Below, in pieces: positions 3,936-63,980 of a stretch of DNA of 64,000 bases. Each line of letters starts with the position of its first letter. Within the stretch, counting starts at the first letter, position 1. The DNA comes from Patescibacteria group bacterium (lineage in GTDB: Bacteria; Patescibacteriota; Patescibacteriia; Magasanikbacterales; UBA922), in the NCBI GenBank assembly GCA_041658785.1, contig JBAZZL010000002.1, positions 1,714 through 65,713 on the forward strand, read 5' to 3'. The translations under genes were made by a program, and so were the position numbers. Below the pieces are notes generated by a model that was not told the DNA's origin, made no database searches, and saw nothing but the letters and a program-made list of their open reading frames with translations.

Positions 3936-5399
3936 GTGAATATTTTTATGGTTAAAATAAAAAATATTATTTTTATCTGTTCCAACTGCGGCGCTCAATA
4001 CCAGAAATGGGTTGGGCGTTGTTTGGAGTGCGGGAAGTGGGGAACGATTGAACAACAGACAAAATACCTGGAAAAAAATACAAACCAGTCCGAGCATCCT
4101 GTGGCGCGGACAAAGGGTTTGCATGAAATAGAAATGACGAATGTCAAAAGAATAATGACAGGTATTGGTGAATTGGATAGAGTTTTAGGCGGCGGGATCG
4201 TGCCGGGCAGTTTAATCTTGCTCGGCGGCGAGCCGGGCATTGGCAAGTCCACGCTCGCCTTGCAACTCGCCGCGTCGGTGAAAAATACTCTCTACATCTC
4301 CGGCGAAGAATCGGTTGAACAAATTGCGATGAGGGCGAAGCGATTGTTGAAACTGGAAACTAGAAACTTGAAACAGGAAGAGAAAACATTGGCTTCAACA
4401 CCAGTTTCCAGTTTCCAGTTTCCAATTTCTTCTCTCCAGCTTGCCAACGAGACAAACACCGAAACGATCTGCGCGACAATAAAGAAAGATTCGCCACCCC
4501 TCGCCATCATTGATTCTATTCAAACTATCTACTCGGACGAAGTCGCCGGCGAACCCGGCAACCCCACCCAAATCCGCGCCTGCGCCGCCAAACTTCTTGA
4601 AACAGCAAAAACAAACAACTCGCTATCCGTAAATCAGGATTATCCGTTATCCGTAAGTCCCGTAAGTCCCGCAATAATCATTATTGGTCATGTAACGAAA
4701 GACGGCTCCGTCGCCGGCCCAAAAATGCTGGAACACCTCGTTGACACGGTTTTATATTTTGAAGGCGACCAGCATCATAACCTACGAATTTTAAGAGCAA
4801 CGAAAAACCGCTTCGGCTCAACCGACGAAGTGGGAATTTTTGAAATGGCTGAAGCGGGACTAAAAGAAGTAAAAAATCCCTCGCAATACTTGCTGGACGA
4901 ACGCGGCGAAAACATGCCAGGCAGTGTGGTAACATGTCTCATGGAAGGAACGCGGCCGCTCCTCGTGGAAGTGCAAGCATTAGTAAGTAAAACTTCTTTT
5001 GGCTACCCGGTGCGCAAAGCCAGCGGGTTTGATTTGAATCGTTTGCATGTTTTGACCGCGGTACTGCAAACACGCGCGGGATTAAATCTCGCTCAATACG
5101 ATATTCATCTCAATATTGTCGGCGGAGTCAAAGCCGACGAGCCAGCTACTGACCTCGCCGTATGCCTAGCAATCGCCAGCGCGTACAAAAACAAGGCGCT
5201 GGGGGCTGATTTGGTGGTATTTGGTGAAGTGGGGCTGGGCGGCGAAGTTAGATCAGTCAAGCAGGTGGAAAGAAGAATTAAAGAATGCGAGAATTTGGGG
5301 ATGAAGCGGGTGATTACCCGTTTGAGGAGCGGAGCGAGCGCGAAGATTAAGGCGGCGGATGTGAAGAATATCGGGGAGTTGATCAAAATGTCGGCGTAG
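3936..5399 (+). CDS. radA: DNA repair protein RadA/Sms, with in-frame repeat-derived insertions
   Basis: CxxC..CxxC zinc finger at the N-terminus. Walker A GEPGIGKST. KNRFG motif. Lon-like C-terminal domain. Insertions at about 4380-4440 and 4620-4680 carry the heptamer repeat (peptide FQFPISSLQ). Confidence 0.9.
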   Translation: MNIFMVKIKNIIFICSNCGAQYQKWVGRCLECGKWGTIEQQTKYLEKNTNQSEHPVARTKGLHEIEMTNVKRIMTGIGELDRVLGGGIVPGSLILLGGEPGIGKSTLALQLAASVKNTLYISGEESVEQIAMRAKRLLKLETRNLKQEEKTLASTPVSSFQFPISSLQLANETNTETICATIKKDSPPLAIIDSIQTIYSDEVAGEPGNPTQIRACAAKLLETAKTNNSLSVNQDYPLSVSPVSPAIIIIGHVTKDGSVAGPKMLEHLVDTVLYFEGDQHHNLRILRATKNRFGSTDEVGIFEMAEAGLKEVKNPSQYLLDERGENMPGSVVTCLMEGTRPLLVEVQALVSKTSFGYPVRKASGFDLNRLHVLTAVLQTRAGLNLAQYDIHLNIVGGVKADEPATDLAVCLAIASAYKNKALGADLVVFGEVGLGGEVRSVKQVERRIKECENLGMKRVITRLRSGASAKIKAADVKNIGELIKMSA

Positions 5400-5474
5400 T
5401 CTGCGACCGCCCGACAACTCATCCTCTGTCTGGCAGTTAATCCGAGCGATGGTGCTCCAACTTTCTCTGGCGGT

Positions 5475-5680
5475 AGTCCGACAACTCTATCCCTGTCCCT
5501 TTCCCTTATGAAGGGAAAGGGAACCCATTAAGCGGGTTCAATTAAAATTCAATCGTTAGGTCATTTTCCTTTAGAAGAGAAAGCGCGGTTAACGATTGAA
5601 TTAAGGATAAACTTTCTTAACGAGTCCTCCTTCCCTTCATAAGGGAAGGAGACAGAGGATGAGTTGTCGGATTACCGCCA
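5475..5680. repeat. ~205-bp foldback (MITE-like) element, copy 1, with nested inverted repeats; extra terminal-repeat copy at 5411-5432
   Basis: Near-identical to 34400-34604. Terminal inverted repeats CCGACAACTC..GGGA / TCCC..GAGTTGTCGG. Internal palindromes TTCCCTTATGAAGGGAA and ATTCAATCGTTA/TAACGATTGAAT. Confidence 0.6.
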
Positions 5681-5867
5681 GCCCTGGGAAACAGAGAGAT
5701 TGTCGAGCCACCACCCACCCCCTGTTTGCACCGCCCAATGAAGGTATTTATAAATTCATCTCTTATGGTACTGCCCGCGACACCTCATCCCCTGCCCTTC
5801 TCCTAAAAGGAGAAGGGAGACGAAACAAACTCCTCCTTCTCCTAAAGCAGAAAATACCACAAAATAT

Positions 5868-8109: not shown

Positions 8110-8322
8110 ACCTCAGGCTGTTGATGAAAAAATCATACCAAAATAAAAACCCAGTGTCAAGAGCAGACACAGGGTAATGACTCCAAACCATCAATCACTA
8201 ATATGGTTCCACACAATCTTTCGGTCTTCCGATCTTTCAGTCTTTGACTCTCGATCTTCAACATTTGGGTATTGGCAATTGGAAATTTTATTAGGTGAAT
8301 TAGAAATTAGGTGAATTAGAAA

Positions 8323-10560
8323 TTACTCAAGATGCACCCTCCCCTCCCATTCCCTCACCCTCTCTCTCAACGCCGGATACTTCCCAAAATCAATACCCCG
8401 CGCCAATTCCCGCGCGAGTTTTATTAATTCATGGTCATGAAAGGTCGCGAGCCGCAGATTCATCATCCCGCTCTGGGCCGTGCCGTACACCTCGCCCGGA
8501 CCGCGCGTTTTCAGATCATACTCGGCAACTTTGAATCCGTCCGTTACTTTTTCAAAATATGCCAACCGCTCTCTCACCTTTTCGCTGTCGCTGTCTGTGA
8601 ACAAAAAACAATACGATTGATGCTCGCTTCTCCCAACCCGTCCGCGAAACTGATGCAGTTGCGCCAAACCAAACCTGTCCGCCCCCTCAATCATCATCAC
8701 GCTCGCGTTCGGAATGTCCACGCCGACCTCCACCACTGATGTGGAAACTAATACGTTGATTGTTCCATTGTTAAATTGTTCCATTGTCTTGTCTTTATCG
8801 CCGGTCTTCATCCTTCCGTGTAAAAAACCGACTTTTAAATCTGGAAAAATATTTTTAGATAACTTCTCGTACTCTCTCAATACACTCTTCTTTTCGTCAA
8901 AATGTGTAACTTGTAACTTGTCCCGCAGCGAGCGGGATCCCGTTGCGGCGGGATAACTTGTAACTTGTCCATCAATCTCCGGCTTCCGGCTTCCAGCTTC
9001 CGGCTTCCGGCTCAAAGTTCTTTCTTCAATCAGCGGGCAGATAACAAAAACCTGTCTTCCTGTCTCAACCTGCGAACGTATAAACCCGTACGCCTTCTCT
9101 CTACTCCGCGACTCTACCGCGCGCGTCTTTACCGGCTTCCGTCCCACGGGCAGTTCGCGGATAATGGACAAATCCAAATCCCCGTAAATCGTCAGCGCAA
9201 ACGACCGTGGTATCGGCGTCGCCGTCATGCTCAAGAAATGCGGCACGGTATTCTTCTGTCCGGATTTATCCGACGCAACTTCAGTGAAACCGGATTTTTC
9301 TCTAATCACTTTTCTCTGCTCCACCCCAAACCGATGCTGTTCGTCCACTACCACTAAACCTAAATTTTTAAACTCAACATCCTCGGTCAAAAGTGCGTGA
9401 GTGCCAACAATTATTTGCACCTCGCCCTCTCTAATTAACTTCAAAGTTTCTTCTCTCATCTTTCTTTTTGAACCATCTCCAATTTCCAATTTCCAATTTC
9501 CAATTTCCTCACTGGTCAACAATACCATCGGACGGTCAGAAAATAACTTTTTTAATGTCTCAAAGTGCTGTTTTGAAAGTATCTCCGTCGGCGCCATAAT
9601 CGCCGTCTGCAGCCCGTTCAGCGCCGCGTTATACGCCGCGATGCCGGCCACCACGGTCTTTCCCGAACCGACATCCCCTTCCAACAGACGATTCATCGGC
9701 TCCCCTTTTTCCAAATCCCGCAAAATCTCCCACGCCGCGATCTTCTGATCGCGGGTCAGCGTGAACGGCAGTGACTGGACAAATTCCCGCGTCTCCTTTT
9801 CTTTAAATTTAATCCGCGACGCCTGGTAACGCTTCATTGACTGGCGAATCATCTCGGCCCGCAACTGCAAAACAAACAACTCGCCAAATTTAAGCCGCCG
9901 CTCGGCCTGTTTCAACTCTTCCTTGGTTTCTGGAAAATGAATCGCTTTTAACGCGAACGGCAGAGTAATCAAATCAGCTTTCTCTAAAATTTCCTCCGGC
10001 AGCCATTCGTCAATTTTCTCCGCCTCGCCAATCACCTGACTCATCAAAAATCTCAACTGTTTCTGGGTTATTCCGGAAGTCAAAGAATACATCGGAACTA
10101 TTCTAGCTGTATGCGTTGTACTCACAACATCATCTTTGTTTCTTGTTTCTTGTTTCTTGTTTCTTTCGTACGATGGTCCTTTCATCGTCACCCCAAACAT
10201 ATCGCCGCTAACCTTGCCAGAAAGATAAACATTATCCCCCACTCTTAAAATCTTGGTAATAAACGGCTGACCAAACCAAATAACTCTAATTCTGCCAGTC
10301 TCGTCCGCCACCACCGCCTCGGTGATAATTTTGCGCTTGCGCGGACTGCGCTTGTTGGCGATAATCTCAATCTTGCCTTTTACTGTAGTCTGCATGCCGT
10401 CTTTTAGGTCTTTAATCAGGGTAACTTGACTATAATCTTCATAGCGAAACGGGAAATAAAAAAGCAGGTCTTGGACAATTTCCACGCCCAGGCGCCTTAG
10501 TTTTCTTTCCAACGTCTTGCCAACGCGATTTAACTCAGTAACTTTGGTTTTCAAATTCAT
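8323..10560 (-). CDS. recG: ATP-dependent DNA helicase RecG with three in-frame repeat insertions
   Basis: OB wedge domain. Helicase motifs GDVGSGKT, DEQHRFG. C-terminal TRG region. Inserts: (CCGGCTT)n and the GGGATCCCG element at 8920-9010; (TTCCAAT)n at 9478-9508 encoding GNWKLEIG; (CTTGTTT)n at 10136-10166. Confidence 0.9.
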   Translation of the reverse strand: MNLKTKVTELNRVGKTLERKLRRLGVEIVQDLLFYFPFRYEDYSQVTLIKDLKDGMQTTVKGKIEIIANKRSPRKRKIITEAVVADETGRIRVIWFGQPFITKILRVGDNVYLSGKVSGDMFGVTMKGPSYERNKKQETRNKDDVVSTTHTARIVPMYSLTSGITQKQLRFLMSQVIGEAEKIDEWLPEEILEKADLITLPFALKAIHFPETKEELKQAERRLKFGELFVLQLRAEMIRQSMKRYQASRIKFKEKETREFVQSLPFTLTRDQKIAAWEILRDLEKGEPMNRLLEGDVGSGKTVVAGIAAYNAALNGLQTAIMAPTEILSKQHFETLKKLFSDRPMVLLTSEEIGNWKLEIGDGSKRKMREETLKLIREGEVQIIVGTHALLTEDVEFKNLGLVVVDEQHRFGVEQRKVIREKSGFTEVASDKSGQKNTVPHFLSMTATPIPRSFALTIYGDLDLSIIRELPVGRKPVKTRAVESRSREKAYGFIRSQVETGRQVFVICPLIEERTLSRKPEAGSRKPEIDGQVTSYPAATGSRSLRDKLQVTHFDEKKSVLREYEKLSKNIFPDLKVGFLHGRMKTGDKDKTMEQFNNGTINVLVSTSVVEVGVDIPNASVMMIEGADRFGLAQLHQFRGRVGRSEHQSYCFLFTDSDSEKVRERLAYFEKVTDGFKVAEYDLKTRGPGEVYGTAQSGMMNLRLATFHDHELIKLARELARGIDFGKYPALRERVREWEGRVHLE

Positions 10561-14433: not shown

Positions 14434-14945
14434 GATACGAAATACGAAAGAATACGAAATTACGAAAATAAACTTTACGAAGAATATTATATTTTATGCC
14501 ACAAGGAGGTAAACAATATATATTGAGAAAAAACGACTTACTTTATCCGGAACTTAGTTTCCGTATTAACGGAGTATTATTTGAAGTGTATAGACAAATG
14601 GGTGGCGGACATCATGAAAAATATTATCAAAAAGCCGTTGTTCTTGGATTATTGAAAGAAAAAATTAAATTCAGAGAACAAGTCTATGTGCCGTTAAAGT
14701 TTAATGATAAAATTGTGGGAAAATATTTTTTAGACTTTTTAATTGAAGATAAAATTATTTTAGAGTTAAAAAGAGGCAAGATGATACCAATACTCAATTT
14801 AAAACAGACAAAACAATACTTATCCACATTAAATTTAAAATTAGGAATTGTTGCCAGCTTTACGCAAGAAGGGGTCGTGATAAAAAGAATAATAAATGAA
14901 TACTAACTGTCTTTCGTAATTTCGTATTCTTTCGTATTTCGTATC
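14434..14945. mobile_element. GxxExxY-gene cassette bounded by perfect 34-bp inverted repeats
   Basis: Left GATACGAAATACGAAAGAATACGAAATTACGAAA (14434-14467) is the exact reverse complement of 14911-14945. A third solo copy lies at 36732-36766. Confidence 0.45.
14496..14906 (+). CDS. GxxExxY family protein
   Basis: GVLFEVY (GxxExxY) motif. 136 aa. Family is commonly found as an inserted accessory gene. Confidence 0.6.
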   Translation: MPQGGKQYILRKNDLLYPELSFRINGVLFEVYRQMGGGHHEKYYQKAVVLGLLKEKIKFREQVYVPLKFNDKIVGKYFLDFLIEDKIILELKRGKMIPILNLKQTKQYLSTLNLKLGIVASFTQEGVVIKRIINEY

Positions 14946-14948
14946 ATT

Positions 14949-15497
14949 ATGAAAATAATCATCGGCCTCGGCAATCCGGGAAAAGATTATCAGAAGACGC
15001 GCCACAACGCCGGGTTTATGGTTGTTGACGCTCTGTGTGAAAAATTTAAAGAATACGGCGTTTCCGACTGGTCGCTCTCCAAAAAATTCAACGCCGAAGT
15101 CTCTGAAGTAAAAATAAAAGACGAAAATATCCTGCTCGTGAAACCCATGACTTTTATGAATCGTTCCGGCGAAACCGCCCATCTCATCATGCGCTTTTAC
15201 AAACTGCCTCCCAAAGATCTGATAATTATTCACGATGACAAGGACTTGAAGCTCGGCGAAATAAAAATCCAGACCGACCGCGGCGACGCCGGACACAATG
15301 GCGTGAAATCAGTCATTGAACACCTCGGGACAAAAGATTTTACCAGAGTCCGCGTGGGGATCGCGAGCGAAGAGGAAAAAAAGATGAGTGATACTTCAAA
15401 ATTCGTTTTAGGAAAATTTGGAATCAGAGAGAAAAAACGATTCAATGAGGCGGCAAGGCGGACGGTTGAAGAAATTAAAAAGGTGATAAAAAATTAA
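14949..15497 (+). CDS. pth: peptidyl-tRNA hydrolase
   Basis: MKIIIGLGNPG..Y..TRHNAGF signature. Confidence 0.9.
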   Translation: MKIIIGLGNPGKDYQKTRHNAGFMVVDALCEKFKEYGVSDWSLSKKFNAEVSEVKIKDENILLVKPMTFMNRSGETAHLIMRFYKLPPKDLIIIHDDKDLKLGEIKIQTDRGDAGHNGVKSVIEHLGTKDFTRVRVGIASEEEKKMSDTSKFVLGKFGIREKKRFNEAARRTVEEIKKVIKN

Positions 15498-15610
15498 ACG
15501 AAATTATACGGAATTATACAAAATTGGACAAAATTTTTTTTAATTTATTTTAATTCTGTTCAATTCTTTATAATTTCGTTTAATTTTGTATAATTCCCTA
15601 CAACCTCCTA

Positions 15611-17597: not shown

Positions 17598-18938
17598 ATG
17601 ACATTTAATGACACTTACAATTATCTTCTTTCTTTGCAAAACCTCCCGCGCAAAGAATACATGAATCACCCGCGCCACTGCGGCATTTATTTGAAACGTC
17701 TGCAATTTTTCCTGAACATTCTGGGCAATCCGGAAAAGAAAATCCCCCGCTACATCCACGTCGCCGGCACCAGCGGCAAGGGCTCAGTAACGGCTTTCTT
17801 ACATTCAATTCTCCAAGCCGCCGGCAAAAAAGTCGGATCAACTCAATCCCCCCATCAGACCGCGATTACCGAACGCTGGAAAATCGGCAATCAATACATG
17901 AACAAAAAAGAATTTATTGATTTGGTGGAATTTATTAAACCAAAACTTGACGAATACATCCGAACCACGCCCTACGATATGCTCTCGTTTTTTGAAATAA
18001 TAGAGGCAATCGGTTTTATTTATTTTGCCAGACACAAAGTTCAATGGCTGGTGCTGGAAACCGGCTGTGGCGGACGATTTGATTCCAGCAATGTTATTCC
18101 GCGTAAAGACATCGCTGTCATCACCACCATCGGCCTGGATCACGTCGGCATCATCGGCGACAACAAATCGGAAATCGCTTATGAAAAGGCGGGAATAATC
18201 AAGCACGGGTGCAAAGTGTTTACGATGGAGGGAGATGAAAAAATAGTTGGCATTATTGAGAAAGAATGTGAAAAAAACAAAGCCAAATTAAATCACGTAT
18301 CACATACCACTTATCACGTATCAAATTTTAATTTAAATAATACTCAATTCATTTATCAAAACGAAACTTTTTGCCTTTCAACCATAGGCGAACACCAAGT
18401 AAAAAACGCGATTTTATGCATTGAAATCGCTCGGGCTCTCGGCATACCAGAAAACGCCATCAAAACCGGCCTAGCCAAAACCAAGCAACCCCTTCGCATG
18501 GAGATTGTATCAAAAAATCCGCTGATTATTCTTGACGGCGCGCACAATCCGGACAAGATGGGGACGACTGTGGCGACACTTCAGCACTTCAGCACTTCAG
18601 CACACAAACCAATAAACCAATCAACTATTAAACCAATAAACTTAATTGTTGGTTTTTCATCCGACAAAAATTACCTCCAAATGATCAAACAACTCTCCAC
18701 CCTGAAACCAAAATCCATCGCCTGCACAAGAAACACGGTCAACCCTTTCCGCAAAGTGGCCGACCCGCAGGATATTGCCAGAAGATTCAAAAAATTTTTA
18801 CCCAAAAGTAAAATCCAAATTTTCCTGGACCCGCGCGCGGCGTTGAATTGGAGCAAAAAACAATATAAAAAAAATAGTGGCCTGATTCTGGCCACTGGGT
18901 CTATTTTTTTGAGCGGGGAATTGCGCCACCGACTCTAA
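17598..18938 (+). CDS. Mur-ligase family folylpolyglutamate synthase-like protein (FolC-like) with in-frame low-complexity insert
   Basis: P-loop HVAGTSGKGS. Mur ligase central and C-terminal regions. Insert HFSTSAHKPINQSTIKPIN comes from (CACTTCAG)n/(ACCAATAA)n repeats at 18588-18650. Confidence 0.7.
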   Translation: MTFNDTYNYLLSLQNLPRKEYMNHPRHCGIYLKRLQFFLNILGNPEKKIPRYIHVAGTSGKGSVTAFLHSILQAAGKKVGSTQSPHQTAITERWKIGNQYMNKKEFIDLVEFIKPKLDEYIRTTPYDMLSFFEIIEAIGFIYFARHKVQWLVLETGCGGRFDSSNVIPRKDIAVITTIGLDHVGIIGDNKSEIAYEKAGIIKHGCKVFTMEGDEKIVGIIEKECEKNKAKLNHVSHTTYHVSNFNLNNTQFIYQNETFCLSTIGEHQVKNAILCIEIARALGIPENAIKTGLAKTKQPLRMEIVSKNPLIILDGAHNPDKMGTTVATLQHFSTSAHKPINQSTIKPINLIVGFSSDKNYLQMIKQLSTLKPKSIACTRNTVNPFRKVADPQDIARRFKKFLPKSKIQIFLDPRAALNWSKKQYKKNSGLILATGSIFLSGELRHRL

Positions 18939-30703: not shown

Positions 30704-30870
30704 ATCTTATCAATTCACCTAATTCATCTAATTGTCTAATTCACCTAATAAAAATTCCAATTTCCAATTTAAAAAATATTAACGTAGAGCAACTGGAATG
30801 TTTGGCATTATCTTATTTGAAATTTTATTAGGTGGATTAGGTGAATTAGACAATTAGGTGAATTTTCAGA
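30697..30870. repeat. ~40-bp inverted repeat arms (TTAGGTGAATTAG family) flanking a heptamer-containing core
   Basis: Arms aattcacctaattcatctaattgtctaattcacctaat / attaggtggattaggtgaattagacaattaggtgaatt. Related copy at 8285-8325. Confidence 0.5.
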
Positions 30871-30871
30871 C

Positions 30872-32644
30872 TTACTTTTTCTCTGTGATCCTTATTCCCA
30901 ACTCCTCCAACTGTTTCTTATCAACTTCCCCCGGCGCGCCAGTCATCACCTCTTCCGCCTGCTGATTCTTCGGAAACGGCACCACCGCGCGGATGTTTCT
31001 TTCGTTCAATAAAACCATGGCCAGCCGCTCAATACCAGGAGCAAATCCACAGTGCGGCGGAGCGCCGTATTCAAACGCGTCAATCATGTGGCCGAACTTT
31101 TTATCAACTTGCTCTTTGGAATAACCGGCAATGGCAAACGCCTTATACATTATTTCCGGATCTTTATTTCTAACCGCGCCGGAGGATAATTCAAAACCAT
31201 TGGCAATAATATCGTACTGCTCCGCGATAATTTTTAACGGATCTTCTTTTTGGAGCGTCTCAAGTCCTCCCCGCGGCTGGGAAAACGGATTATGCCCGAA
31301 GTCAATCTTTTTAAACTCTTCATTGTACTCGTACATGGGAAAATCCACAATCCACGCCCAGGCAATCATGTTCGGATCTTTTAAATTCATTTTCTCTCCC
31401 ACCAATTCTCGCACCGCCCCCAGCGCTTTACAACTCACTTCCCATTTATCAGCAACAAAAAACAAAATATAATTCTGTTTAATTTTGTTTAATTTTGTCA
31501 AATTCTTTAATTCTTTCAAATGCTCTTCACTAACAAATTTAGAAATCCCGCCATCTAACTTCCCATCAATAACTTTAAACCACGCCAACCCCTTGGCATG
31601 CGCGCGAACAGCCGCGTCCAAAAATTCGCCGTCCAATTCGCTCCGGTTGAAACTTTCGCCGCCGGGAACAATCAAACAACGAACGTATTCGGCATTTTGG
31701 AAGACCTTAAAATCCGTCCGCTTAGCCCACGCGGTAACATCGGTTAATTTTAAATCAAACCTCAAGTCCGGCCGGTCGCTCCCGTAGGTTTCCAAACATT
31801 CTCTGAACGGAATGCGGGGAAACGGCTTTTGCAAAACTTTTTTGCCCGCCACTTCCTCGGTGAGGCCGATAAACAATGGCTCCATTTCCTGAAAAAATTC
31901 TTCCGGCGTCAGAAAACTCGTCTCCACGTCCAATTGATAAAATTCACCGGGAGAACGATCGGCCCGCGCGTCTTCGTCGCGCATGCAGGGAGCAATCTGG
32001 TAGTATTTATCAAAACCCGCGACCATCAATAATTGTTTATACTGTTGCGGCGCCTGAGGCAAAGCGTAAAACTTGCCCGGGTGGATCCGGCTCGGCACCA
32101 GATAATCCCGCGCACCCTCGGGCGATGAAACCGTCAGAATCGGCGTGGCAATATGCGTAAACCCGCGCCCATCCATATAGTCGCGGATGTACTTCTCCAT
32201 CTTCGCCCGGAATAAAATATTATTTTTCAACTGCTCCCGCCGCAATTCCAAATAACGGTATTTCAATCGCAACTCTTCATCCTCTTCTCCCTTGCGCGCG
32301 TCAAAAATTTCAAACGGCAATGTTTTCGCCCGGCTCAAAATTTCCACCGCGCTCGCCGCTAACTCAATCTCGCCCGTGGCTAATTCCTTGTTTACCGTCT
32401 TCGCCTCGCGTTTTACCACTTCACCCGTAACTTTGATAACATACTCGTATTTTAACTCTTCGGCCGCGGCGTAATTTCCGGTCTTCTCCGGACTAAAAAC
32501 CACCTGCGTAATCCCATACCGGTCCCGTAAATCAACAAAAATCAAGCCGCCAAACTTGCGCCTCTTATGCACCCAGCCGGACAAGGTTACTTTTTTCCCG
32601 GCGTGTTTTTTAGTTAATTCTCCGCAGGTGTGAGTTCTATACAT
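30872..32644 (-). CDS. aspS: aspartate--tRNA ligase (bacterial type)
   Basis: 590 aa. Class II motifs 2/3 (FRDE, GLDR). GAD insertion domain. Short repeat-derived stretch at 31460-31500. Confidence 0.9.
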   Translation of the reverse strand: MYRTHTCGELTKKHAGKKVTLSGWVHKRRKFGGLIFVDLRDRYGITQVVFSPEKTGNYAAAEELKYEYVIKVTGEVVKREAKTVNKELATGEIELAASAVEILSRAKTLPFEIFDARKGEEDEELRLKYRYLELRREQLKNNILFRAKMEKYIRDYMDGRGFTHIATPILTVSSPEGARDYLVPSRIHPGKFYALPQAPQQYKQLLMVAGFDKYYQIAPCMRDEDARADRSPGEFYQLDVETSFLTPEEFFQEMEPLFIGLTEEVAGKKVLQKPFPRIPFRECLETYGSDRPDLRFDLKLTDVTAWAKRTDFKVFQNAEYVRCLIVPGGESFNRSELDGEFLDAAVRAHAKGLAWFKVIDGKLDGGISKFVSEEHLKELKNLTKLNKIKQNYILFFVADKWEVSCKALGAVRELVGEKMNLKDPNMIAWAWIVDFPMYEYNEEFKKIDFGHNPFSQPRGGLETLQKEDPLKIIAEQYDIIANGFELSSGAVRNKDPEIMYKAFAIAGYSKEQVDKKFGHMIDAFEYGAPPHCGFAPGIERLAMVLLNERNIRAVVPFPKNQQAEEVMTGAPGEVDKKQLEELGIRITEKK

Positions 32645-32759: not shown

Positions 32760-33389
32760 TTATTTCGGCCAAATTTGTACCCAAATTTCTTTAGGAGAAA
32801 TATATTGATAATACAAACTCCAATCTTTCTTATTCTGAACTTTCCTGTTGATAATGCCGGAAACATAATCAGCTACTTGCAGTAAACTGTTAGCGGAGGA
32901 ACGCTGTTGTTTAAATTTCTTTATCGGCCTCTTATCTCTATTATTTAACTTTGATCTTAGATATTTTCCCAAACTTTTCCGGAAATCCGGCGAGCCGGAT
33001 CTGTCCAGCACCACGATTGCGTTGTCCAAATAAGGCAGAGCATTAGTAAAAGTCATCTGGCACGCATATTTGTAAAAAGATTCTTTGACGGAAAAACCCG
33101 GGCCGTACAGCTTGCTAGGATCTTTGTTTATCACGACGGAAAAATAAGTAAAATGATACGGTCGTATCGCTTGCAAAAAAGCTTGGCGCACCCGCCTGGA
33201 ATTATGCGTGAAATGAAATTCAAAATTTGCCGGATAACCAAGTTCTTTTCTCAATAACGCGACGCGCTTGTCGCAATCGCCGGCGATCTCATTATCCTGA
33301 AATAATATCATTGAAATTATAAAAAACTGACTTGAGCCCTCACCGACCTTTCGGCCAGTATCACCTGACTCATCGATAAATACGAGCAT
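32760..33389 (-). CDS. DUF3800 family protein
   Basis: Hallmark N-terminus MLVFIDESGD. Confidence 0.65.
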   Translation of the reverse strand: MLVFIDESGDTGRKVGEGSSQFFIISMILFQDNEIAGDCDKRVALLRKELGYPANFEFHFTHNSRRVRQAFLQAIRPYHFTYFSVVINKDPSKLYGPGFSVKESFYKYACQMTFTNALPYLDNAIVVLDRSGSPDFRKSLGKYLRSKLNNRDKRPIKKFKQQRSSANSLLQVADYVSGIINRKVQNKKDWSLYYQYISPKEIWVQIWPK

Positions 33390-33534
33390 AGTTTTACTTC
33401 AAAATCGCCCTATTATTGTACCAATTCTCGGCTCTTTACGCAAGTTATCAACAGATAGGTTGTTTTTTTTTGCGGGGTGGTAGAATACACTGAAAGCGCC
33501 ATTCGCTTTGTATTAACAATTTAATGATAGTTTT

Positions 33535-34275
33535 ATGTCACCAGGAGAACATCAAGGTTATAGACCACCCGACGCAGATAAACCTATCACAAATGATGGA
33601 GTAGAAACGCTAAAACGACAACGGGAAAAAACGGCAGCCGCCTTAGCCGAAGCGGAGAAGGAGGAAGAAGAAGAGGCAAGAATAGATCTCGTAGGTGATT
33701 TAATAAATGAAATAGAAATAATAGATGATGAACTAAGAAAAAAATATTGGTCGTCGCAAAAGGCAACCGAAAATGAAACCGTCGGTAGCGAGGTTCAGAC
33801 ACGAATCGCCGGAATAGCCGAGAGATTATTGCCAGAATATGAAGAGATGTTAAGAAGAAATGGCGGACAATACCACTATAGTGATGAACATGTCAATAAA
33901 GAAGGACAAGTCGTCCGCGAAACAAGAATTATCTCTGACCATGAAGAAGTCGTAAAAAGAGCGTTAATCAAACTTGATAAAATCTGTAAAGGTGAACCCT
34001 ACTGTAAAGGAATTCCCGCGGTTGAAGTTGGAGAAAGAAGTGGATATGTTGGGGAAAATAAAACCGAGTTGCGACAATTATCCGATGACTTATTTTTGTA
34101 TACGGACTCTCGACTTATGAATAATGAAACAGGTGTATTTGACCCTGAAGTGCATCTGGTGAATTCGCAGGAAGCGCGAGAACTGCATGAGTCCTTTGGT
34201 GAAAAATCACGACTCAAAATTGCAGAATTAGAAAATCAAATGAAGGCAGGACAAACAATGTTGAACAAATTGTAA
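33535..34275 (+). CDS. hypothetical protein with acidic/coiled-coil N-terminal region
   Basis: 246-aa ORF. Divergent from the DUF3800 gene. Confidence 0.35.
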   Translation: MSPGEHQGYRPPDADKPITNDGVETLKRQREKTAAALAEAEKEEEEEARIDLVGDLINEIEIIDDELRKKYWSSQKATENETVGSEVQTRIAGIAERLLPEYEEMLRRNGGQYHYSDEHVNKEGQVVRETRIISDHEEVVKRALIKLDKICKGEPYCKGIPAVEVGERSGYVGENKTELRQLSDDLFLYTDSRLMNNETGVFDPEVHLVNSQEARELHESFGEKSRLKIAELENQMKAGQTMLNKL

Positions 34276-34340: not shown

Positions 34341-34399
34341 TCACCTCCCCAGCCCCGCCGCGTTGTTGCGGTCTGGTTGCTCCCCTCTTCGGTGGTAAT

Positions 34400-34604
34400 C
34401 CGACAACTCTATCCCTGTCCCTTTCCCTTATGAAGGGAAAGGGAACCCATTAAGCGGGTTCAACTAAAATTCAATCATTAGGTCATTTCCCTTTAGAAGA
34501 GAAAGCGCGGCCTAACGATTGAATTAAGAACAAACCCTCTTAACGAGTCCTCCTTCCCTTCATAAGGGAAGGAGACAGAGGATGAGTTGTCGGGCTACCG
34601 CCAG
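34400..34604. repeat. ~205-bp foldback (MITE-like) element, copy 2
   Basis: About 93% identical by eye to 5475-5680. Confidence 0.6.
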
Positions 34605-34702
34605 AGAAAGGCAGAGGATAGATTATTGGGCTACCGCGAAGAAAATTTAAACCGCATTCGTTCAGTTTTCAACCTATCAACACCCCATCCCCCTTATCCA
34701 CA

Positions 34703-35752
34703 TCACCCCACCCTTTGAACTTTCGCCACAAAAAACCCTTTCATCTCCCTATCCGGCATTATTCTCAATGCCTTTTTTATTACTTCGTCATGAACGCGCC
34801 GTCCGCGCCACTCCTTCACCATCGGCGCCCGATTAATATTCAAGTTCCCAATATCCAATATCTCGCAATCACTATTTCTCTCTAACAATCGTGTTATCTG
34901 CAACTCATTCTCCTCCGGCGCGAAGGTGCAGGTGGAATAAACCAAAACGCCGCCGGGCTTTAACGCGCCCCAGGCGGAAAATAACAATTGCCTTTGTTTG
35001 TAGGCCATTTCTTTAATTTTTCTCTCTTTCCAATATCCAAACGTTTTCGGATCGTCCGTGATAAACCGCGCTTCGGCGCTGCACGGCGCGTCCAGTAAAA
35101 TTTTATCAAAATACCCCGGATACTCGCGGCACAACGCCGCCCCGTGTTCCATACGCAAAGAAAACACCCAGCTCGAATCGTCTCCCTCTCCTTTTAGGAA
35201 AGGGCTGAGGTGAGGTGTCGGACTACCTCCGTCCAGCGGATGAGATGCCGTCGCCACTCCCAGCGCCTCCATATTATGCTTCAACTTAAAAAACCTCGGC
35301 TTATTATTATCGTTCGCCACCAACTCCCCTTGGCAACCCATCAAAGCGGCAATCTGCGAGGTCTTGCTCCCGGGCGCGGCGGTCAGGTCCAATACTTTTT
35401 CTCCCGGCGTTGGATCAAGGACGAGCGGTGGCGCCATGCTCGCTAAACTCTGGATATAGATTTTTCCGTTTGAGTACAAATCTGACTCGCCCAACTCCCG
35501 TTTAGTTTTATTCTGCAAAATAAACGCGTCCCGATACCACGGCACGTTTTTTATTTTAAACCCTTCTCTTTGCAAACTTTCTAAAACTTCTTCTCTTTTC
35601 GCTTTAATCGTATTGACCCGAAAAGTGGTGGGGCGTTCAATAAAAGTTTTGTTGATCTCCAAAAATAAACCAGGCCCAAAAATTTCTTTGAGCCTGTTTT
35701 GAAATACTTCTGGAATGGTTTTTTGACTATTCCCTTTTTGCTTTCTGCTCAC
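34703..35752 (-). CDS. NOL1/NOP2/Sun-family RNA (cytosine-C5) methyltransferase (RsmB/RsmF-like) with repeat-fragment insert
   Basis: SAM motif LDLTAAPGSKT. Catalytic DAPCS and TC motifs. Insert at 35186-35232 resembles the foldback element's terminal inverted repeat and encodes SPFLKGEGDDSSW. Confidence 0.75.
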   Translation of the reverse strand: MSRKQKGNSQKTIPEVFQNRLKEIFGPGLFLEINKTFIERPTTFRVNTIKAKREEVLESLQREGFKIKNVPWYRDAFILQNKTKRELGESDLYSNGKIYIQSLASMAPPLVLDPTPGEKVLDLTAAPGSKTSQIAALMGCQGELVANDNNKPRFFKLKHNMEALGVATASHPLDGGSPTPHLSPFLKGEGDDSSWVFSLRMEHGAALCREYPGYFDKILLDAPCSAEARFITDDPKTFGYWKERKIKEMAYKQRQLLFSAWGALKPGGVLVYSTCTFAPEENELQITRLLERNSDCEILDIGNLNINRAPMVKEWRGRRVHDEVIKKALRIMPDREMKGFFVAKVQRVG

Positions 35753-36330: not shown

Positions 36331-36764
36331 ATTATTATATAAAAAGTATAGAATAAGTGTATATTTACTATACACTTTATCTATAATTTTGTCAAGAGAC
36401 CGCTGGTTCAATCCACGCCATACTTATCATCCGCTTTTTGAAGCGTGATCATCCTTTTACCGGAACGCAAAATCAAGCGCGCCATTTTCACTCGCTTCTT
36501 TAATTCTTTGCTTCGCGATGCGCATTGATCTTCCAAAATTTCTTCAAATTCTTTTTTTAAAAAATCGGCTTGCCTCTTATCCATAAAGCATTCGCGTTTA
36601 GTTCTTTATTTTTATGTGGATTAGCGAATTGAGCCCGGCCGGGCGAAATTCGCGCCGGAGCACCGCCAGCGCGAAATTCGTCTGCGGACTCATTTCGCTA
36701 CTCCATCGGATCTGCCGCGGATTTTTTATTTTTCGTAATTTCGTACTCTTTCGTATTTCGTATC

Positions 36765-38070: not shown

Positions 38071-38158
38071 GAAACTAGAAATTAAAAACTGGAAACTGGA
38101 AACTGGCTGTAAAACAATAATTTCCAGTTTCTAATTTCTAGTTTCTAGTTTCCTGATT
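38071..38158. repeat. palindromic array of heptamer repeats (GAAACTG/GAAATTA vs TTTCCAG/TTTCTAA)
   Basis: gaaactagaaattaaaaactggaaactggaaactgg ... tttccagtttctaatttctagtttctagtttcc. Confidence 0.6.
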
Positions 38159-38165
38159 TCCCAAG

Positions 38166-38570: not shown

Positions 38571-38720
38571 AGGTAAAATTTTTTAGTGTTTTTTGAATAA
38601 TTCGTTAGATTATTAATCTGTATATCTGGATTAAGTTTATTACAAATAGAGTGTGCGGTCAAGTTATGGTATAGCGGCAACCACTGAACGGGGTTTAATT
38701 TCTTATTTCTTATTTCTTCC

Positions 38721-38830
38721 GCAATAAGCGGGATCCCGCCCCGCAATGGAGTCGAGTCCCCGTTCGCTGCGGGGCTCGCTGCCACCGCCACAGCGGGGCC
38801 CCGTCTTCTTTGCGGGGCGGGACAATTTCT
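38721..38830. repeat. GCGGGATCCCGC-centred hairpin-rich repeat element (full copy A) flanked by TTTCTTA heptamers
   Basis: About 70-nt core shared with 63907-63980. Partial copies at 8922-8956 and 50741-50768. Confidence 0.55.
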
Positions 38831-50459: not shown

Positions 50460-50879
50460 TTATTGCTTACTCTGCTTACTCTGCTCCAAATATGATTGCA
50501 GAATCACCATCGCCGCTTTCTCATCTCTACTCACCGTTCCTCCCATCGCATCCGCCTGCCTCGAAGTAAACCTCTCGTCAACGAATTCAATTGGTAAGTC
50601 AATTCGTTTTTTTAATTCTTTCACGAACGCTTGAACAATTTTTGTGTTCTCATTCTCTTTTCCATCCAAACCAATCGGCAACCCCACGACAATTTTATCT
50701 ATCTTTTCTTTGGCAATCAAATCTGAAATCTGTCCCGCCAAAACGGGATCCCGCTCGCTGCGGGAAATTCTGAAATCTGAAATCAAAAATTGGCCAAATG
50801 GCAAAACAACCCCAAGGCCAGTCTCCACCCAAGCCAATCCAATATTTTTTCTGCCGTAATCAATGCCGAGTATATTCAT
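50460..50879 (-). CDS. ruvX: YqgF/RuvX-family Holliday-junction resolvase-like nuclease, with in-frame GGGATCCCG element
   Basis: MNILGIDYGRKNIGLA N-terminus. Insert at 50741-50768 encodes RSERDPV. Confidence 0.85.
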   Translation of the reverse strand: MNILGIDYGRKNIGLAWVETGLGVVLPFGQFLISDFRISRSERDPVLAGQISDLIAKEKIDKIVVGLPIGLDGKENENTKIVQAFVKELKKRIDLPIEFVDERFTSRQADAMGGTVSRDEKAAMVILQSYLEQSKQSKQ

Positions 50880-56999: not shown

Positions 57000-57015
57000 A
57001 ATATTTTACACTTAA

Positions 57016-57212
57016 TCACTTTAACACTTTAGCACTTTAACACTTTAGCACTTGAGCACTTTAACACTTTAGCACTTGAGCACTTTAACACTTTAGCACT
57101 TGAGCACTTTAACACTTTAGCACTTTAGCACTTGAGCACTTTAACGCTGAGGCACTTTTCCAATTTACTTGGGAATAAATCGTGCTAAAGTGCTTCAGTG
57201 CTAAAGTGCTTA
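57016..57212. repeat. 24-nt tandem array (CACTTTAA-CACTTTAG-CACTTGAG, ~5.5 units) with inverted tail, between rpsZ and rpsH
   Basis: Direct units 57016-57150. Inverted copies 57182-57212 can pair back onto the array. Confidence 0.7.
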
Positions 57213-58387: not shown

Positions 58388-58488
58388 AATTTGTTGATTC
58401 GAATCAGCTGATATACTCCCTTGCTCTATTTAATTTCAATTTTGAATTTTATCCATACATTATTATTCTATTAAGATTCAGCTAAAAA

Positions 58489-58538
58489 ACCAATTTCCAA
58501 TTTCCAATTTCTAATTTCTAATTTCTAATTTCCAATTA
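58489..58538. repeat. heptamer tandem array (TTCCAAT/TTCTAAT)n in rplN-rplX spacer
   Basis: ccaatttccaatttccaatttctaatttctaatttctaatttccaatt. Confidence 0.65.
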
Positions 58539-58919
58539 CACTACTTCCGACGCTAACGAAATAATCTTCTGGAATCCTTTGATGCGTAATTCTCGGGCAA
58601 CCGGACCAAAAATGCGCGTCCCTTTTGGTTCTTTGTCTTTTTTATCAATAATTACCGCCGCATTTTCATCAAATCTAATATAGGTGCCGTCTTTTCTGCG
58701 CCGCTCTTTCTTTTGTCTGACAATTACCGCGTGAACTATATCGCTCTTTTTGACTGCGCCGCGCGGGTCTGCCTCTTTTACTGTACACGTGATAATGTCG
58801 CCAAGCTGAGCATATCGTTTCTTGTATCCGCCAAGCACACGAATACACATTAGCTTTTTTGCGCCGCTATTATCTGCTACTTTTAACATTGTCCGGTGTT
58901 GAATCATATATACATCCAA
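58536..58919 (-). CDS. rplN: 50S ribosomal protein L14
   Basis: Likely start MIQHRT (58907). Confidence 0.9.
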
Positions 58920-61244: not shown

Positions 61245-61245
61245 A

Positions 61246-61366
61246 TTTCCAATTTCCAATTTCCAGTTTCTAATTTCCAATTTCCAATTTCCAGTTTCTA
61301 ATTTCCAGTTTCTAATTTCCAGTTTCTAATTTCCAGTTTCTAATTTCCAATTTCAATTTAATTAAC
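61246..61366. repeat. heptamer tandem array (~17 units of TTCCAAT/TTCCAGT/TTCTAAT) in rpsS-rplV spacer
   Basis: Longest array of the family in the window. Confidence 0.7.
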
Positions 61367-61407
61367 TCAATATCAATTCATTATAATAAATATTTTATGA
61401 CTGCGTA

Positions 61408-63839: not shown

Positions 63840-63906
63840 ATCTATGACAAAACCAGTAATTAGCTGTTAAAATTATCATTCCGATCTTACACAGTTTCAA
63901 ATTTCT

Positions 63907-63980
63907 CCCGCAGTAAGCGGGATCCCGCCCCGCAATGGAGTCGTGTCCCCATTCGCTACGGGGCTCGCTGCAGGGACAAT
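63907..63980. repeat. GCGGGATCCCGC-centred repeat element (copy B) upstream of rplD
   Basis: cccgcagtaagcgggatcccgccccgcaatggagtcgtgtccccattcgctacggggctcgctgcag. Core shared with 38721-38830. Confidence 0.55.

What the first reader, a model, noticed from the sequence alone, without database searches (positions are those of the whole stretch)
5403..5700. 205-bp foldback/MITE-like element in two copies, with a terminal-repeat fragment exapted into an rRNA methyltransferase gene
Copies at 5475-5680 and 34400-34604 are about 93% identical. They carry imperfect 28-bp terminal inverted repeats (CCGACAACTC...) and nested internal palindromes.

Copy 1 has an extra terminal-repeat copy at 5411-5432. 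A related palindrome sits at 5780-5850.

A terminal-repeat-like fragment lies in frame inside the RsmB/F-like gene at 35186-35232, next to copy 2.

No transposase is present in the window, so the element is non-autonomous, or a structured RNA.
Basis: seen in the sequence. Interest (0 to 1): 0.6.

Follow-up and report, generated by a model that had tools for sequence, protein, structure and literature searches.

The report
Palindromic repeat family in a CPR bacterium
The two ~212-bp foldback sequences are real copies of a small, transposase-less palindromic repeat family (REP/REPIN/MITE-like) in an uncultured Magasanikbacteria (CPR) genome, and pieces of the same family sit in frame inside housekeeping genes; this is a new family of an already known kind of selfish DNA.

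Summary
Two 211-212-bp quasi-palindromes lie at 5469-5679 and 34391-34602 and are 94% identical. Extra "head" repeats flank both copies, and a related module lies in frame in the RsmB/F-like gene at 35181-35230.

The unit is a ~55-nt module: a head, GGYGGTAGTCCGACAMCTC..CTGTC, followed by an 11-bp hairpin. The 212-bp element is two such modules facing inward around a variable central palindrome.

At least six further copies, 83-88% identical and including ~140-165-nt deletion variants, lie in metagenome contigs that probably come from the same genome. All are at unrelated sites just downstream of genes. Three relatives that keep AsnRS-RsmF-AspRS synteny have no copy there.

Similar modules are in frame in a PcrA/UvrD-like helicase and in QueA. 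The RsmF and helicase insertion sites are hypervariable loops that carry other REP-like peptides in orthologs.

I found no target-site duplication, no transposase, no Rfam match and only weak covariation.

Best reading: a non-autonomous REPIN/MITE-like repeat moved in trans, possibly by an HUH/RAYT-type enzyme that has not been found. It is a new member of a known kind and of moderate interest. "Exaptation" is not shown.

The parts
5403..5432 (+). Outer solo 'head' repeat (CCGACAACTCATCCTCTGTCT) with no hairpin. It lies 10 nt after the radA-like stop codon.
   Evidence: Exact 20-21-nt match to the reverse complement of 5650-5670 and 34574-34593. nhmmer head profile E = 8.5e-5.
5469..5679 (+). 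Full-length element, copy 1 (211 bp): left module 5469-5526, variable central palindrome about 5548-5603, right module 5622-5679 (inverted).
   Evidence: (D5/D6, I2).
5690..5715 (-). Degenerate outer head (AACAGAGAGATTGTCGAGCCACCACC). With 5403-5432 it forms an outer inverted pair around copy 1.
   Evidence: Read from the sequence. The same nested arrangement is seen at L036, L037 and L041.
5773..5820 (+). Solo intergenic module of the 'B' subtype: head GCGACACCTCATCCCCTGCC plus hairpin CCCTTCTCC-TAAA-AGGAGAAGGG. A partial repeat of the hairpin arm follows at 5830-5850.
   Evidence: Local alignment to both element ends. nhmmer module profile E = 0.02.
34391..34602 (+). Full-length element, copy 2 (212 bp), between convergent genes: a hypothetical gene ending at 34275 and RsmB/F ending at 34703.
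   Evidence: Identical in ENA contigs L001 and L002.
34610..34638 (-). Degenerate outer head (reverse complement CGCGGTAGCCCAATAATCTATCCTCTGCC), a few bases (34603-34609) beyond the right end of copy 2.
   Evidence: alignment (score 35). Weak (E = 2-4).
35181..35230 (-). Module in frame inside the RsmB/F-like gene (GGAGGTAGTCCGACACCTCACCTCAGCCCTTTCCTAAAAGGAGAGGGAGA), encoding GGSPTPHLSPFLKGEGD.
   Evidence: E = 0.0066. It lies within a ~29-residue insertion relative to solved homologs and in a hypervariable loop among orthologs.
34703..35752 (-). Host gene: RsmB/F-family rRNA cytosine-C5 methyltransferase (349 aa).
   Evidence: Pfam PF01189, PF17125, PF22458. PDB homologs 1ixk and 3m6u.

Best explanation
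**What it is**

The feature is one family of small, non-autonomous palindromic repeat DNA in an uncultured Candidatus Magasanikbacteria (Patescibacteria/CPR) genome.

- **Building block.** A ~55-nt module: a conserved linear head (GGYGGTAGTCCGACAMCTC..TCCYCTGYC) followed by an 11-bp stem and 3-nt loop hairpin.
- **212-bp element.** Two modules in inverted orientation with the GTAG ends outward, around a less conserved central palindrome. Either DNA strand, or a transcript, can fold into a ~100-bp hairpin or a cruciform.

**What is shown**

- The family has full-length copies, internally deleted copies, solo modules and solo heads.
- They are scattered at unrelated sites just 3' of genes.
- Relatives lack the element at an orthologous site.
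- Modules survive in frame in loops of housekeeping proteins.

**What is inferred**

- Copies spread by transposition in trans. No enzyme has been found.
- The most likely route is a hairpin-recognising single-strand HUH/tyrosine transposase of the RAYT or IS200/IS605 type. This rests on the GTAG-tagged ends, the inverted dimer architecture, the absence of target duplications, and the nested insertion inside older copies.
- Intergenic copies probably act incidentally as 3' RNA hairpins. Genic copies persist only in the open reading frame and in insertion-tolerant surface loops.
For: 1. **Dispersed copies.** Two window copies are 94% identical. A specific pattern scan of JGI metagenomes found six loci with copies 83-88% identical. 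Their flanks share nothing with the window apart from other short repeats.
2. **Same genome, probably.** These contigs co-occur with the window's contigs in the same four samples. No second close ortholog exists; the next best are 70-74% identical.
3. **Ends conserved, centre variable.** The ~55 nt at each end are nearly invariant, while the centre varies and is deleted in the ~140-165-nt variants.
4. **Location.** All eight intergenic copies lie 6-242 nt downstream of a stop codon, in unidirectional or convergent spacers. Orientation relative to transcription is not fixed: L036 is reversed.
5. **Empty orthologous site.** Relatives L046, L047 and L049 keep AsnRS-RsmF-AspRS synteny. They have no element in that spacer and no full module anywhere in 10-21 kb; the only profile hit is a weak hairpin-part match inside the RsmF gene of L047/L048.
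6. **In-frame modules.** They occur in RsmB/F, in a PcrA/UvrD-like helicase (L041 5218-5268, E = 4.9e-6) and in QueA (L050 17407-17444). Only 2 of 6 frames of the module are open, by my reading of the sequence.
7. **Nested heads.** Heads flank most copies in nested or tandem arrangement.
8. **Known precedent.** GTAG-tagged REPs form head-to-head dimers, sit downstream of ORFs, and occur inside repair and RNA-modification genes (PMC3733652).
Against: - No transposase of any kind was found in the 64-kb window or in roughly 50 kb of related loci. Mobility is therefore inferred from distribution only.
- No filled-versus-empty pair between close strains was found. The relatives used are only 66-70% identical in RsmF.
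- No target-site duplication above chance was found.
- The GTAG tag lies about 20 nt from the short hairpin, unlike canonical REPs.
- Copy number in the whole genome is unknown, because the metagenome scan is incomplete. It missed contig Ga0265296_1000695, which does carry copy 1.
- Copies differ by 6-17%, so there has been no recent burst.
Confidence: 0.75

Rival explanations
1. The element is primarily a structured RNA: a small RNA gene family, or a cis-acting 3'-UTR element that terminates transcription or protects mRNAs from 3' exonucleases. On this reading its multiplicity reflects function and not mobility.
For: - The fold is very stable.
- 95% of predicted pairs are kept across six copies, with a few two-sided changes at the terminal stem and the apical hairpin.
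- Every copy lies just downstream of a gene.
- Copy 2 could end the RsmB/F transcript, which has no canonical terminator.
Against: - There is no Rfam match even at E <= 10 beyond generic long-hairpin microRNA models.
- Both strands fold equally well.
- Covariation is weak: 49 of 63 pairs in the main helix never vary, and 26 of 500 shuffles reach the observed score.
- Orientation relative to the upstream gene is not constant.
- Internal deletions, solo modules and in-frame genic modules do not fit one RNA function.
- Relatives lack the element at the orthologous site.
- There is no T-run terminator signature.
Confidence: 0.12
2. The repeats are protein-binding DNA sites used by the host, comparable to E. 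coli BIMEs that bind IHF or gyrase, or to recombination or segregation sites. The tandem heads would be iterated binding sites.
For: Heads occur in tandem arrays spaced 20-40 nt apart and are the most conserved part of the element. REP/BIME elements are known to bind host proteins; this is general knowledge and is also discussed in PMC3733652.
Against: - No candidate binding protein was found.
- Sites inside coding loops and deletion variants argue against a positional host function.
- The family is absent from relatives at 66-70% RsmF identity, so it is not a conserved host system.
Confidence: 0.06
3. The copies arose through segmental duplication, or through gene conversion between a few loci, with no dedicated mobility mechanism. 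The genic modules resemble them only by convergence on a simple hairpin motif.
For: - L037 and L039 share a further ~75-190 nt of flank next to the element.
- L036 and L040 share about 520 nt.
- The hairpin part (CCTCTCC-AAA-GGAGAGG) is low in complexity. The RsmF loop has similar peptides in distant relatives.
Against: - Most copies share nothing beyond the element boundaries.
- The boundaries are sharp and coincide with the GGYGGTAG ends.
- The exact 12-mer GGTAGTCCGACA is shared between intergenic ends and two genic modules.
Confidence: 0.07

Closest known systems
REP / REPIN elements (GTAG-tagged repetitive extragenic palindromes mobilised by RAYT tyrosine transposases; Bertels & Rainey 2011, PMC3116915; Di Nocera et al. 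2013, PMC3733652)
   Same: - A GTAG motif sits at the outer end of each unit.
- Each unit contains a short hairpin.
- Two units in inverted, GTAG-outward ('HH') orientation fold into a larger hairpin.
- Copies lie downstream of ORFs in unidirectional or convergent spacers.
- Copies occur clustered or nested.
- Units occur in frame in DNA-repair and RNA-modification genes.
- There is no target duplication.
   Different: - The unit is ~55 nt, not 20-40 nt.
- GTAG is separated from the short hairpin by a ~20-nt conserved linear head.
- The dimer is 212 bp and has its own central palindrome.
- No RAYT was found in the sequence available.
- The host is a CPR bacterium, a group for which I found no report of REP/REPIN elements.
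Prokaryotic MITEs (review PMC10969869), e.g. Correia, ERIC, RUP, Nezha
   Same: It is under 500 bp, non-coding, has terminal inverted repeats, forms a stable stem-loop, is mostly intergenic, is multi-copy, and shows internal-deletion variants.
   Different: - No flanking direct repeats were found.
- No parent IS with matching ends was found.
- It is not AT-rich relative to its surroundings.
- The whole element, and not only its ends, is palindromic.
Rickettsia palindromic elements (RPEs; Ogata et al. 2000 and 2002, as summarised in PMC10969869 and PMC3733652)
   Same: - Small palindromic repeats are inserted in frame in conserved housekeeping genes of a reduced genome.
- Orthologs without the insert exist.
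- The same family also occurs between genes.
   Different: - There is no sequence relationship to RPEs.
- The genic pieces here are single ~50-nt modules (17 residues), whereas RPEs are ~100-150 bp.
- Insertions concentrate in loops that are hypervariable across the whole order.

Membership tests
MITE | Short (<500 bp) non-coding element with no transposase gene | tested here: met
   The element is 211-212 bp. All six frames contain stop codons. No gene is called over it.
MITE | Terminal inverted repeats | tested here: met
   GGCGGTAGTCCGACAACTC pairs with GAGTTGTCGGATTACCGCC at 18 of 19 positions. Pairing continues with bulges over 92-nt arms.
MITE | Flanking direct repeats (target-site duplication) | tested here: not met
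   With +/-5 nt of boundary slack, the best flanking direct repeats are 2-5 nt at eight copies. This matches the null distribution from 2000 random position pairs. Decay in old copies cannot be excluded.
MITE | Several copies at non-homologous genomic sites | tested here: met
   There are two window copies plus copies at L036, L037 (two), L039 and L041 (two), with unrelated flanks.
MITE | A related autonomous IS with the same ends | tested here: inconclusive
   None was found in the window or the fetched loci. There were no real hits in GTDB species representatives, phages or plasmids. The rest of the genome is not available.
REP / REPIN (GTAG type) | 20-40-bp palindromic unit with an unpaired GTAG tag directly beside the stem | tested here: not met
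   GTAG is present and conserved (GGTAG/GGTAA/GGCAG). It lies about 20-22 nt from the 11-bp hairpin, and the unit is ~55 nt. The definition is taken from PMC3733652.
REP / REPIN (GTAG type) | Inverted dimers (GTAG outward) 20-100 bp apart that fold into a larger hairpin | tested here: met
   The two modules are inverted with about 95 nt between them. The whole element folds as one hairpin.
REP / REPIN (GTAG type) | Location downstream of ORFs, in unidirectional or convergent spacers | tested here: met
   Eight of eight intergenic copies fit, lying 6-242 nt after a stop codon.
REP / REPIN (GTAG type) | Cognate RAYT (HUH/Y1 transposase) gene flanked by the repeats | tested here: inconclusive
   No PF01797-type or other transposase hit was found in roughly 115 kb of this genome. 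RAYTs are single-copy, so the whole genome is needed.
RPE-like in-frame palindromic insertions | The repeat lies in frame inside a conserved gene, and orthologs without it exist | tested here: met
   - **RsmB/F.** The loop is 32 residues, against 3-10 in P0007, P0013, P0009, P0025 and others.
- **Helicase and QueA.** Both modules are in frame.
RPE-like in-frame palindromic insertions | Sequence homology to the named Rickettsia RPE families | not tested
   No RPE sequences were at hand. The host phylum and the consensus differ, so homology is not expected.
Described structured RNA family (Rfam) | Match to a covariance model at gathering score | tested here: not met
   Only tRNAs pass in the window. 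The best local hits are plant microRNA hairpin models at 38 bits, against cut-offs of 140-200.

The most novel reading that the evidence does not exclude
Several unrelated families of tiny palindromic elements in Magasanikbacteria, and perhaps in CPR bacteria generally, spread without any dedicated transposase. Possible routes are hairpin-primed or competence/recombination-linked copying, since DprA, RadA, RecG and RecO are all encoded here. On this reading the elements preferentially land in one another and in a few surface loops of essential proteins (RsmF, PcrA/UvrD, QueA, TGT). That would make them a standing source of loop variation in ultra-small genomes.
Probability: 0.1. Interest if true: 0.7.

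Novelty: new member of a known kind. Interest (0 to 1): 0.38.

Why it matters
CPR/Patescibacteria genomes are about 1 Mb, streamlined, and usually described as poor in mobile DNA. A library search found no paper linking them with REP, REPIN or MITE elements. The MITE review does not mention them.

This locus shows that at least one Magasanikbacteria genome carries several families of small palindromic repeats. These repeats reach into essential genes, and orthologs across the order carry different repeat-derived peptides in the same protein loops.

Three practical consequences follow:
- **Annotation.** Spurious ORFs and odd 'insertions' in CPR proteins may be repeat-derived.
- **Binning and assembly.** The repeats are likely contig break points.
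- **Evolution.** They bear on how reduced genomes generate protein-surface variation.

None of this changes the general picture of bacterial repeats, which already includes REPs, REPINs and Rickettsia RPEs.

Tried and rejected
1. **GTDB genome scan.** CGACAMCTCATCCYCTGYC gave 33 single hits in unrelated phyla, about the number expected by chance, and none had the adjoining hairpin.
2. **IMG/VR scan with the head pattern.** One weak hit without a module.
3. **Protein database search with concatenated module peptides.** 121 candidates, none at E <= 10. The query was too short for that database, so one of the three searches was wasted. Two earlier attempts failed on parameter limits.
4. **Rfam.** Nothing at gathering or E-value thresholds. 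6S RNA, HEARO and other long-hairpin RNAs were considered and have no support.
5. **Integron attC.** The central stem contains GTTAGGT and GCCTAAC, but in the reverse order to an attC site (R''...R'). It is simply a stem. Rejected from reading the sequence.
6. **Target-site duplications.** None above chance.
7. **Covariation.** Too few distinct copies, and the result is weak.
9. **Phage and plasmid collections.** No match.
10. **Intrinsic terminator scan.** No convincing terminator in or beside the elements.
11. **Strain polymorphism.** Independent assemblies of the same loci are identical, so no empty or filled alleles were seen.

Full report
**1.

The two sequences are at 5469-5679 and 34391-34602. 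They are 93.9% identical over 214 aligned positions. Each is a long imperfect palindrome with 92-nt arms that are 77% complementary.

Either strand folds far better than shuffled controls. The plus strand reaches -141 kcal/mol (z = -11.6) and the minus strand -154 kcal/mol (z = -13.1).

- The 20-mer CCGACAACTCATCCTCTGTC at 5411-5430 is an exact reverse complement of the right ends of both copies. Three matches were found against none expected.
- A related head-plus-hairpin unit lies at 5773-5820.
- A related unit lies in frame in the RsmB/F-like gene at 35181-35230.

Identical sequence in independent JGI and ENA assemblies rules out an assembly artefact.

**2. Anatomy**

Aligning all ends shows a ~55-nt module. 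It has a head, GGYGGTAGTCCGACAMCTC(A/TA)TCCYCTGYC, followed by an 11-bp stem with a 3-nt loop (CCTTTCCCTT-ATG-AAGGGAAAGG).

The 212-bp element is two modules facing inward, with the GGTAG ends outermost. Between them lies a central region with its own stem (ATTCAATCGTTAGG...CCTAACGATTGAAT).

Left and right heads differ in a fixed way in every copy (CTCTATCCCTGTCCC on the left, CTCATCCTCTGTCTCC on the right).

Additional, more degenerate heads sit outside most copies, in the same orientation as the adjacent end. The current element therefore looks nested inside an older pair. In the window these heads are at 5403-5432 and 5690-5715 around copy 1, and at 34610-34638 beside copy 2. The same pattern is seen at L036, L037 and L041.

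**3. Host**

The best named homologs of the RsmB/F-like protein and of a helicase are from Candidatus Magasanikbacteria / Patescibacteria.

The window's contigs occur in JGI sample 3300028032 and in ENA assemblies ERZ27247322 and ERZ27249422.

The window encodes ordinary housekeeping genes, including RadA, RecG, DprA, topoisomerase I, RelA/SpoT, ParAB, aspartyl- and asparaginyl-tRNA synthetases, a ribosomal protein operon and SecY. It also encodes several toxin-antitoxin and restriction genes. No transposase domain was found.

**4. More copies elsewhere**

A scan of GTDB species representatives with a degenerate 19-mer returned only chance hits.

A more specific pattern (head, gap, hairpin) in JGI metagenomes found six loci from Ga0265292 and Ga0265296. 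These carry:
- full-length copies 83-88% identical to the window copies (L036 = L038, close to L040; L037; L039);
- shorter ~140-165-nt variants in which part of the centre is missing or replaced (L037 12936-13076; L041 9555-9721 and 14456-14620, the last two 91% identical to each other).

Apart from other short repeats, their flanks have no similarity to the window.

These loci encode non-overlapping housekeeping genes: S2, EF-Ts, GAPDH, TGT, CarA, NDK, PcrA/UvrD and QueA. The L041 helicase occurs in the same ENA samples as the window genes, and its next-best homolog is only 74% identical. I infer that these contigs belong to the same genome as the window.

The scan missed a contig that does contain copy 1. 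The copy count is therefore a lower bound.

**5. Distribution**

All eight intergenic copies lie 6-242 nt after a stop codon, in unidirectional or convergent spacers. Orientation with respect to the upstream gene is not constant, because L036 is reversed.

The ~55 nt at each end are almost invariant, whereas the centre varies.

Three relatives keep the AsnRS-(toxin-antitoxin)-RsmF-AspRS-AftA-ScpA-ScpB order; their RsmF is 66-70% identical (64% for P0017). They have no element between RsmF and AspRS. No full module was detected anywhere in 10-21 kb of their sequence; the only profile hit is a weak match to the hairpin part inside the RsmF gene of L047/L048.

In the window, copy 2 sits at the edge of a two-gene insertion (a hypothetical gene and DUF3800) that these relatives lack.

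**6. Genic modules**

- **RsmB/F.** Relative to solved RsmF/Nop2-type structures, the protein has about 29 extra residues between the two halves of the methyltransferase domain. The module encodes 17 of them (GGSPTPHLSPFLKGEGD).
- **PcrA/UvrD-like helicase.** A module profile found a second in-frame copy here (L041 5218-5268, GGSPTPHPLTPLLKGEG, E = 4.9e-6).
- **QueA.** A third, with a truncated head, lies here (L050 17407-17444, PYPRPPLKKGRE).

By my reading of the sequence, the module is open in only two of six frames. Both complete genic copies use the same frame, as expected if selection filters insertions.

Among 42 RsmF orthologs this loop ranges from 3 to 65 residues. Some orthologs are 'empty' (NA-K, EGEDFLK). 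Others carry related peptides (PLPDPLLKGEG, PHPNPLLQGEG, PHPNPPLKGEGG) or quite different repeat-like peptides (CHCE..DEAIQ..ARND; ATRNLSE..KDPSS).

At the DNA level, the relatives' inserts share the CCTCACCCC..CCTCTCCTA-AAA-GGAGAGGG part but not the GGTAGTCCGACA head.

The helicase site is likewise a variable loop. It holds REP-like peptides in some orthologs: LTPSPSPKGRGE, PLPSPPLRGEGG, RPHPNPLLQGEG.

The genic module is thus a tolerated insertion in a loop that has repeatedly accepted such sequences. Nothing shows that it was derived from the nearby copy 2 or that it has acquired a function.

**7. RNA or DNA**

Rfam gives nothing.

The consensus fold keeps 95% of pairs, but 49 of 63 pairs in the main helix never vary. 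The covariation score is reached by 26 of 500 shuffles.

A few two-sided changes occur at the outermost pairs. For example, L039 has GGCAGCCCG at both ends. This fits selection for pairing, a shared recognition sequence, or intra-element conversion. Both strands fold equally well.

Together with the variable orientation, the deletion derivatives and the coding copies, this favours repeat DNA over a dedicated RNA gene. Transcribed copies would still form strong 3' hairpins.

**8. Mechanism**

No flanking direct repeats exceed chance. No transposase was found in about 115 kb of sequence.

Several features match GTAG-type REPs and REPINs, as described in PMC3733652 and PMC3116915:
- the GTAG-containing outer ends;
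- the hairpins;
- the inverted-dimer form;
- the 3'-of-gene location;
- the clustering and nesting;
- the intragenic copies in repair and RNA-modification genes.

Those elements are mobilised by single-copy RAYT enzymes without target duplication. Two strict REP criteria are not met here, namely unit size and a tag adjacent to the stem, and the RAYT is unobserved.

I therefore describe the element as working like a REPIN. I file it only as a REP/REPIN/MITE-like palindromic repeat family. My confidence is about 0.75 for the class and about 0.25 for the RAYT route specifically.

**9. Comparison and novelty**

The closest known kinds are REP/REPIN elements, prokaryotic MITEs (PMC10969869) and Rickettsia palindromic elements.

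The sequence family itself has no match in Rfam, phage or plasmid collections, or GTDB representatives. I found no report of such elements in CPR bacteria.

It is a new member of a known kind. The most interesting aspect is the order-wide pattern of repeat-derived peptides in the same loops of essential proteins.

Noticed in passing
window 8906-8968, 38697-38782, 50719-50785, 63886-63971; L041 8611-8667: A second, unrelated palindromic repeat family: a double hairpin TCCCGC..GCGGGA / TCCCG..CGGGA. In at least the 8906-8968 and 50719-50785 copies it is bracketed on both sides by short tandem heptamers that differ between copies (TAACTTG, AAATCTG); TTTCTTA precedes the 38697-38782 copy. The same family, heptamers included, lies in frame inside the TGT gene of L041, giving the peptide NLSRRSGTPLAAGKSESE.
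   Followed up: partly
window 61245-61370, 58486-58541, 38071-38161, 4349-4452, 9484-9512, 57004-57150, 18570-18609, 15486-15605, 31461-31524: Many intergenic spacers hold tandem arrays of 7-, 8- or 10-nt units: (ATTTCCA)n, (ACTTTAGC)n and AATTNTGTTT-like. This is unusual density for a small genome. Their origin and any link to the hairpin repeats are unexplained.
   Followed up: no
window 14434-14467 and 14912-14945; third copy 36730-36764: Perfect 34-nt inverted repeats (GATACGAAATACGAAAGAATACGAAATTACGAAA) bracket a small PD-(D/E)XK (PDDEXK_3) gene at 14496-14906. A 97% identical copy lies downstream of the AsnRS gene. This may be a small mobile cassette or a shared regulatory element.
   Followed up: no
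window 8271-8319 and 30707-30872; L036 11613-11744; L041 11175-11335: Another dispersed repeat (ATTAGGTGAATTAGA-type, with inverted copies at 30721-30749 and 30836-30864) lies downstream of recG and aspS. It is shared with the related metagenome contigs.
   Followed up: no
window 32760-34275: Two genes, a hypothetical 246-aa gene and DUF3800, lie between RsmF and AspRS. They are absent from the three syntenic relatives. Copy 2 sits at the edge of this small insertion.
   Followed up: partly
L050 17018-18319 (QueA) and RsmF orthologs P0023, P0026, P0031, P0050, P0073: QueA carries a second long insert (ERGKRKGVGRLSNNLTMEQCNNEIISRDKVEINEDRKFEIRNLKLGK...). Several Magasanikbacteria RsmF orthologs carry loop peptides typical of other widespread repeats (CHCEE..DEAIQ..LPSVARND; ATRNLSE..KDPSS). 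This suggests that in-frame repeat insertions are common in this order.
   Followed up: no
L037 3483-3593 and L039 1426-1620: A further ~110-190-nt sequence next to the element is shared, inverted, between two loci. Either it is a composite repeat unit or another repeat family that the element lands beside.
   Followed up: partly
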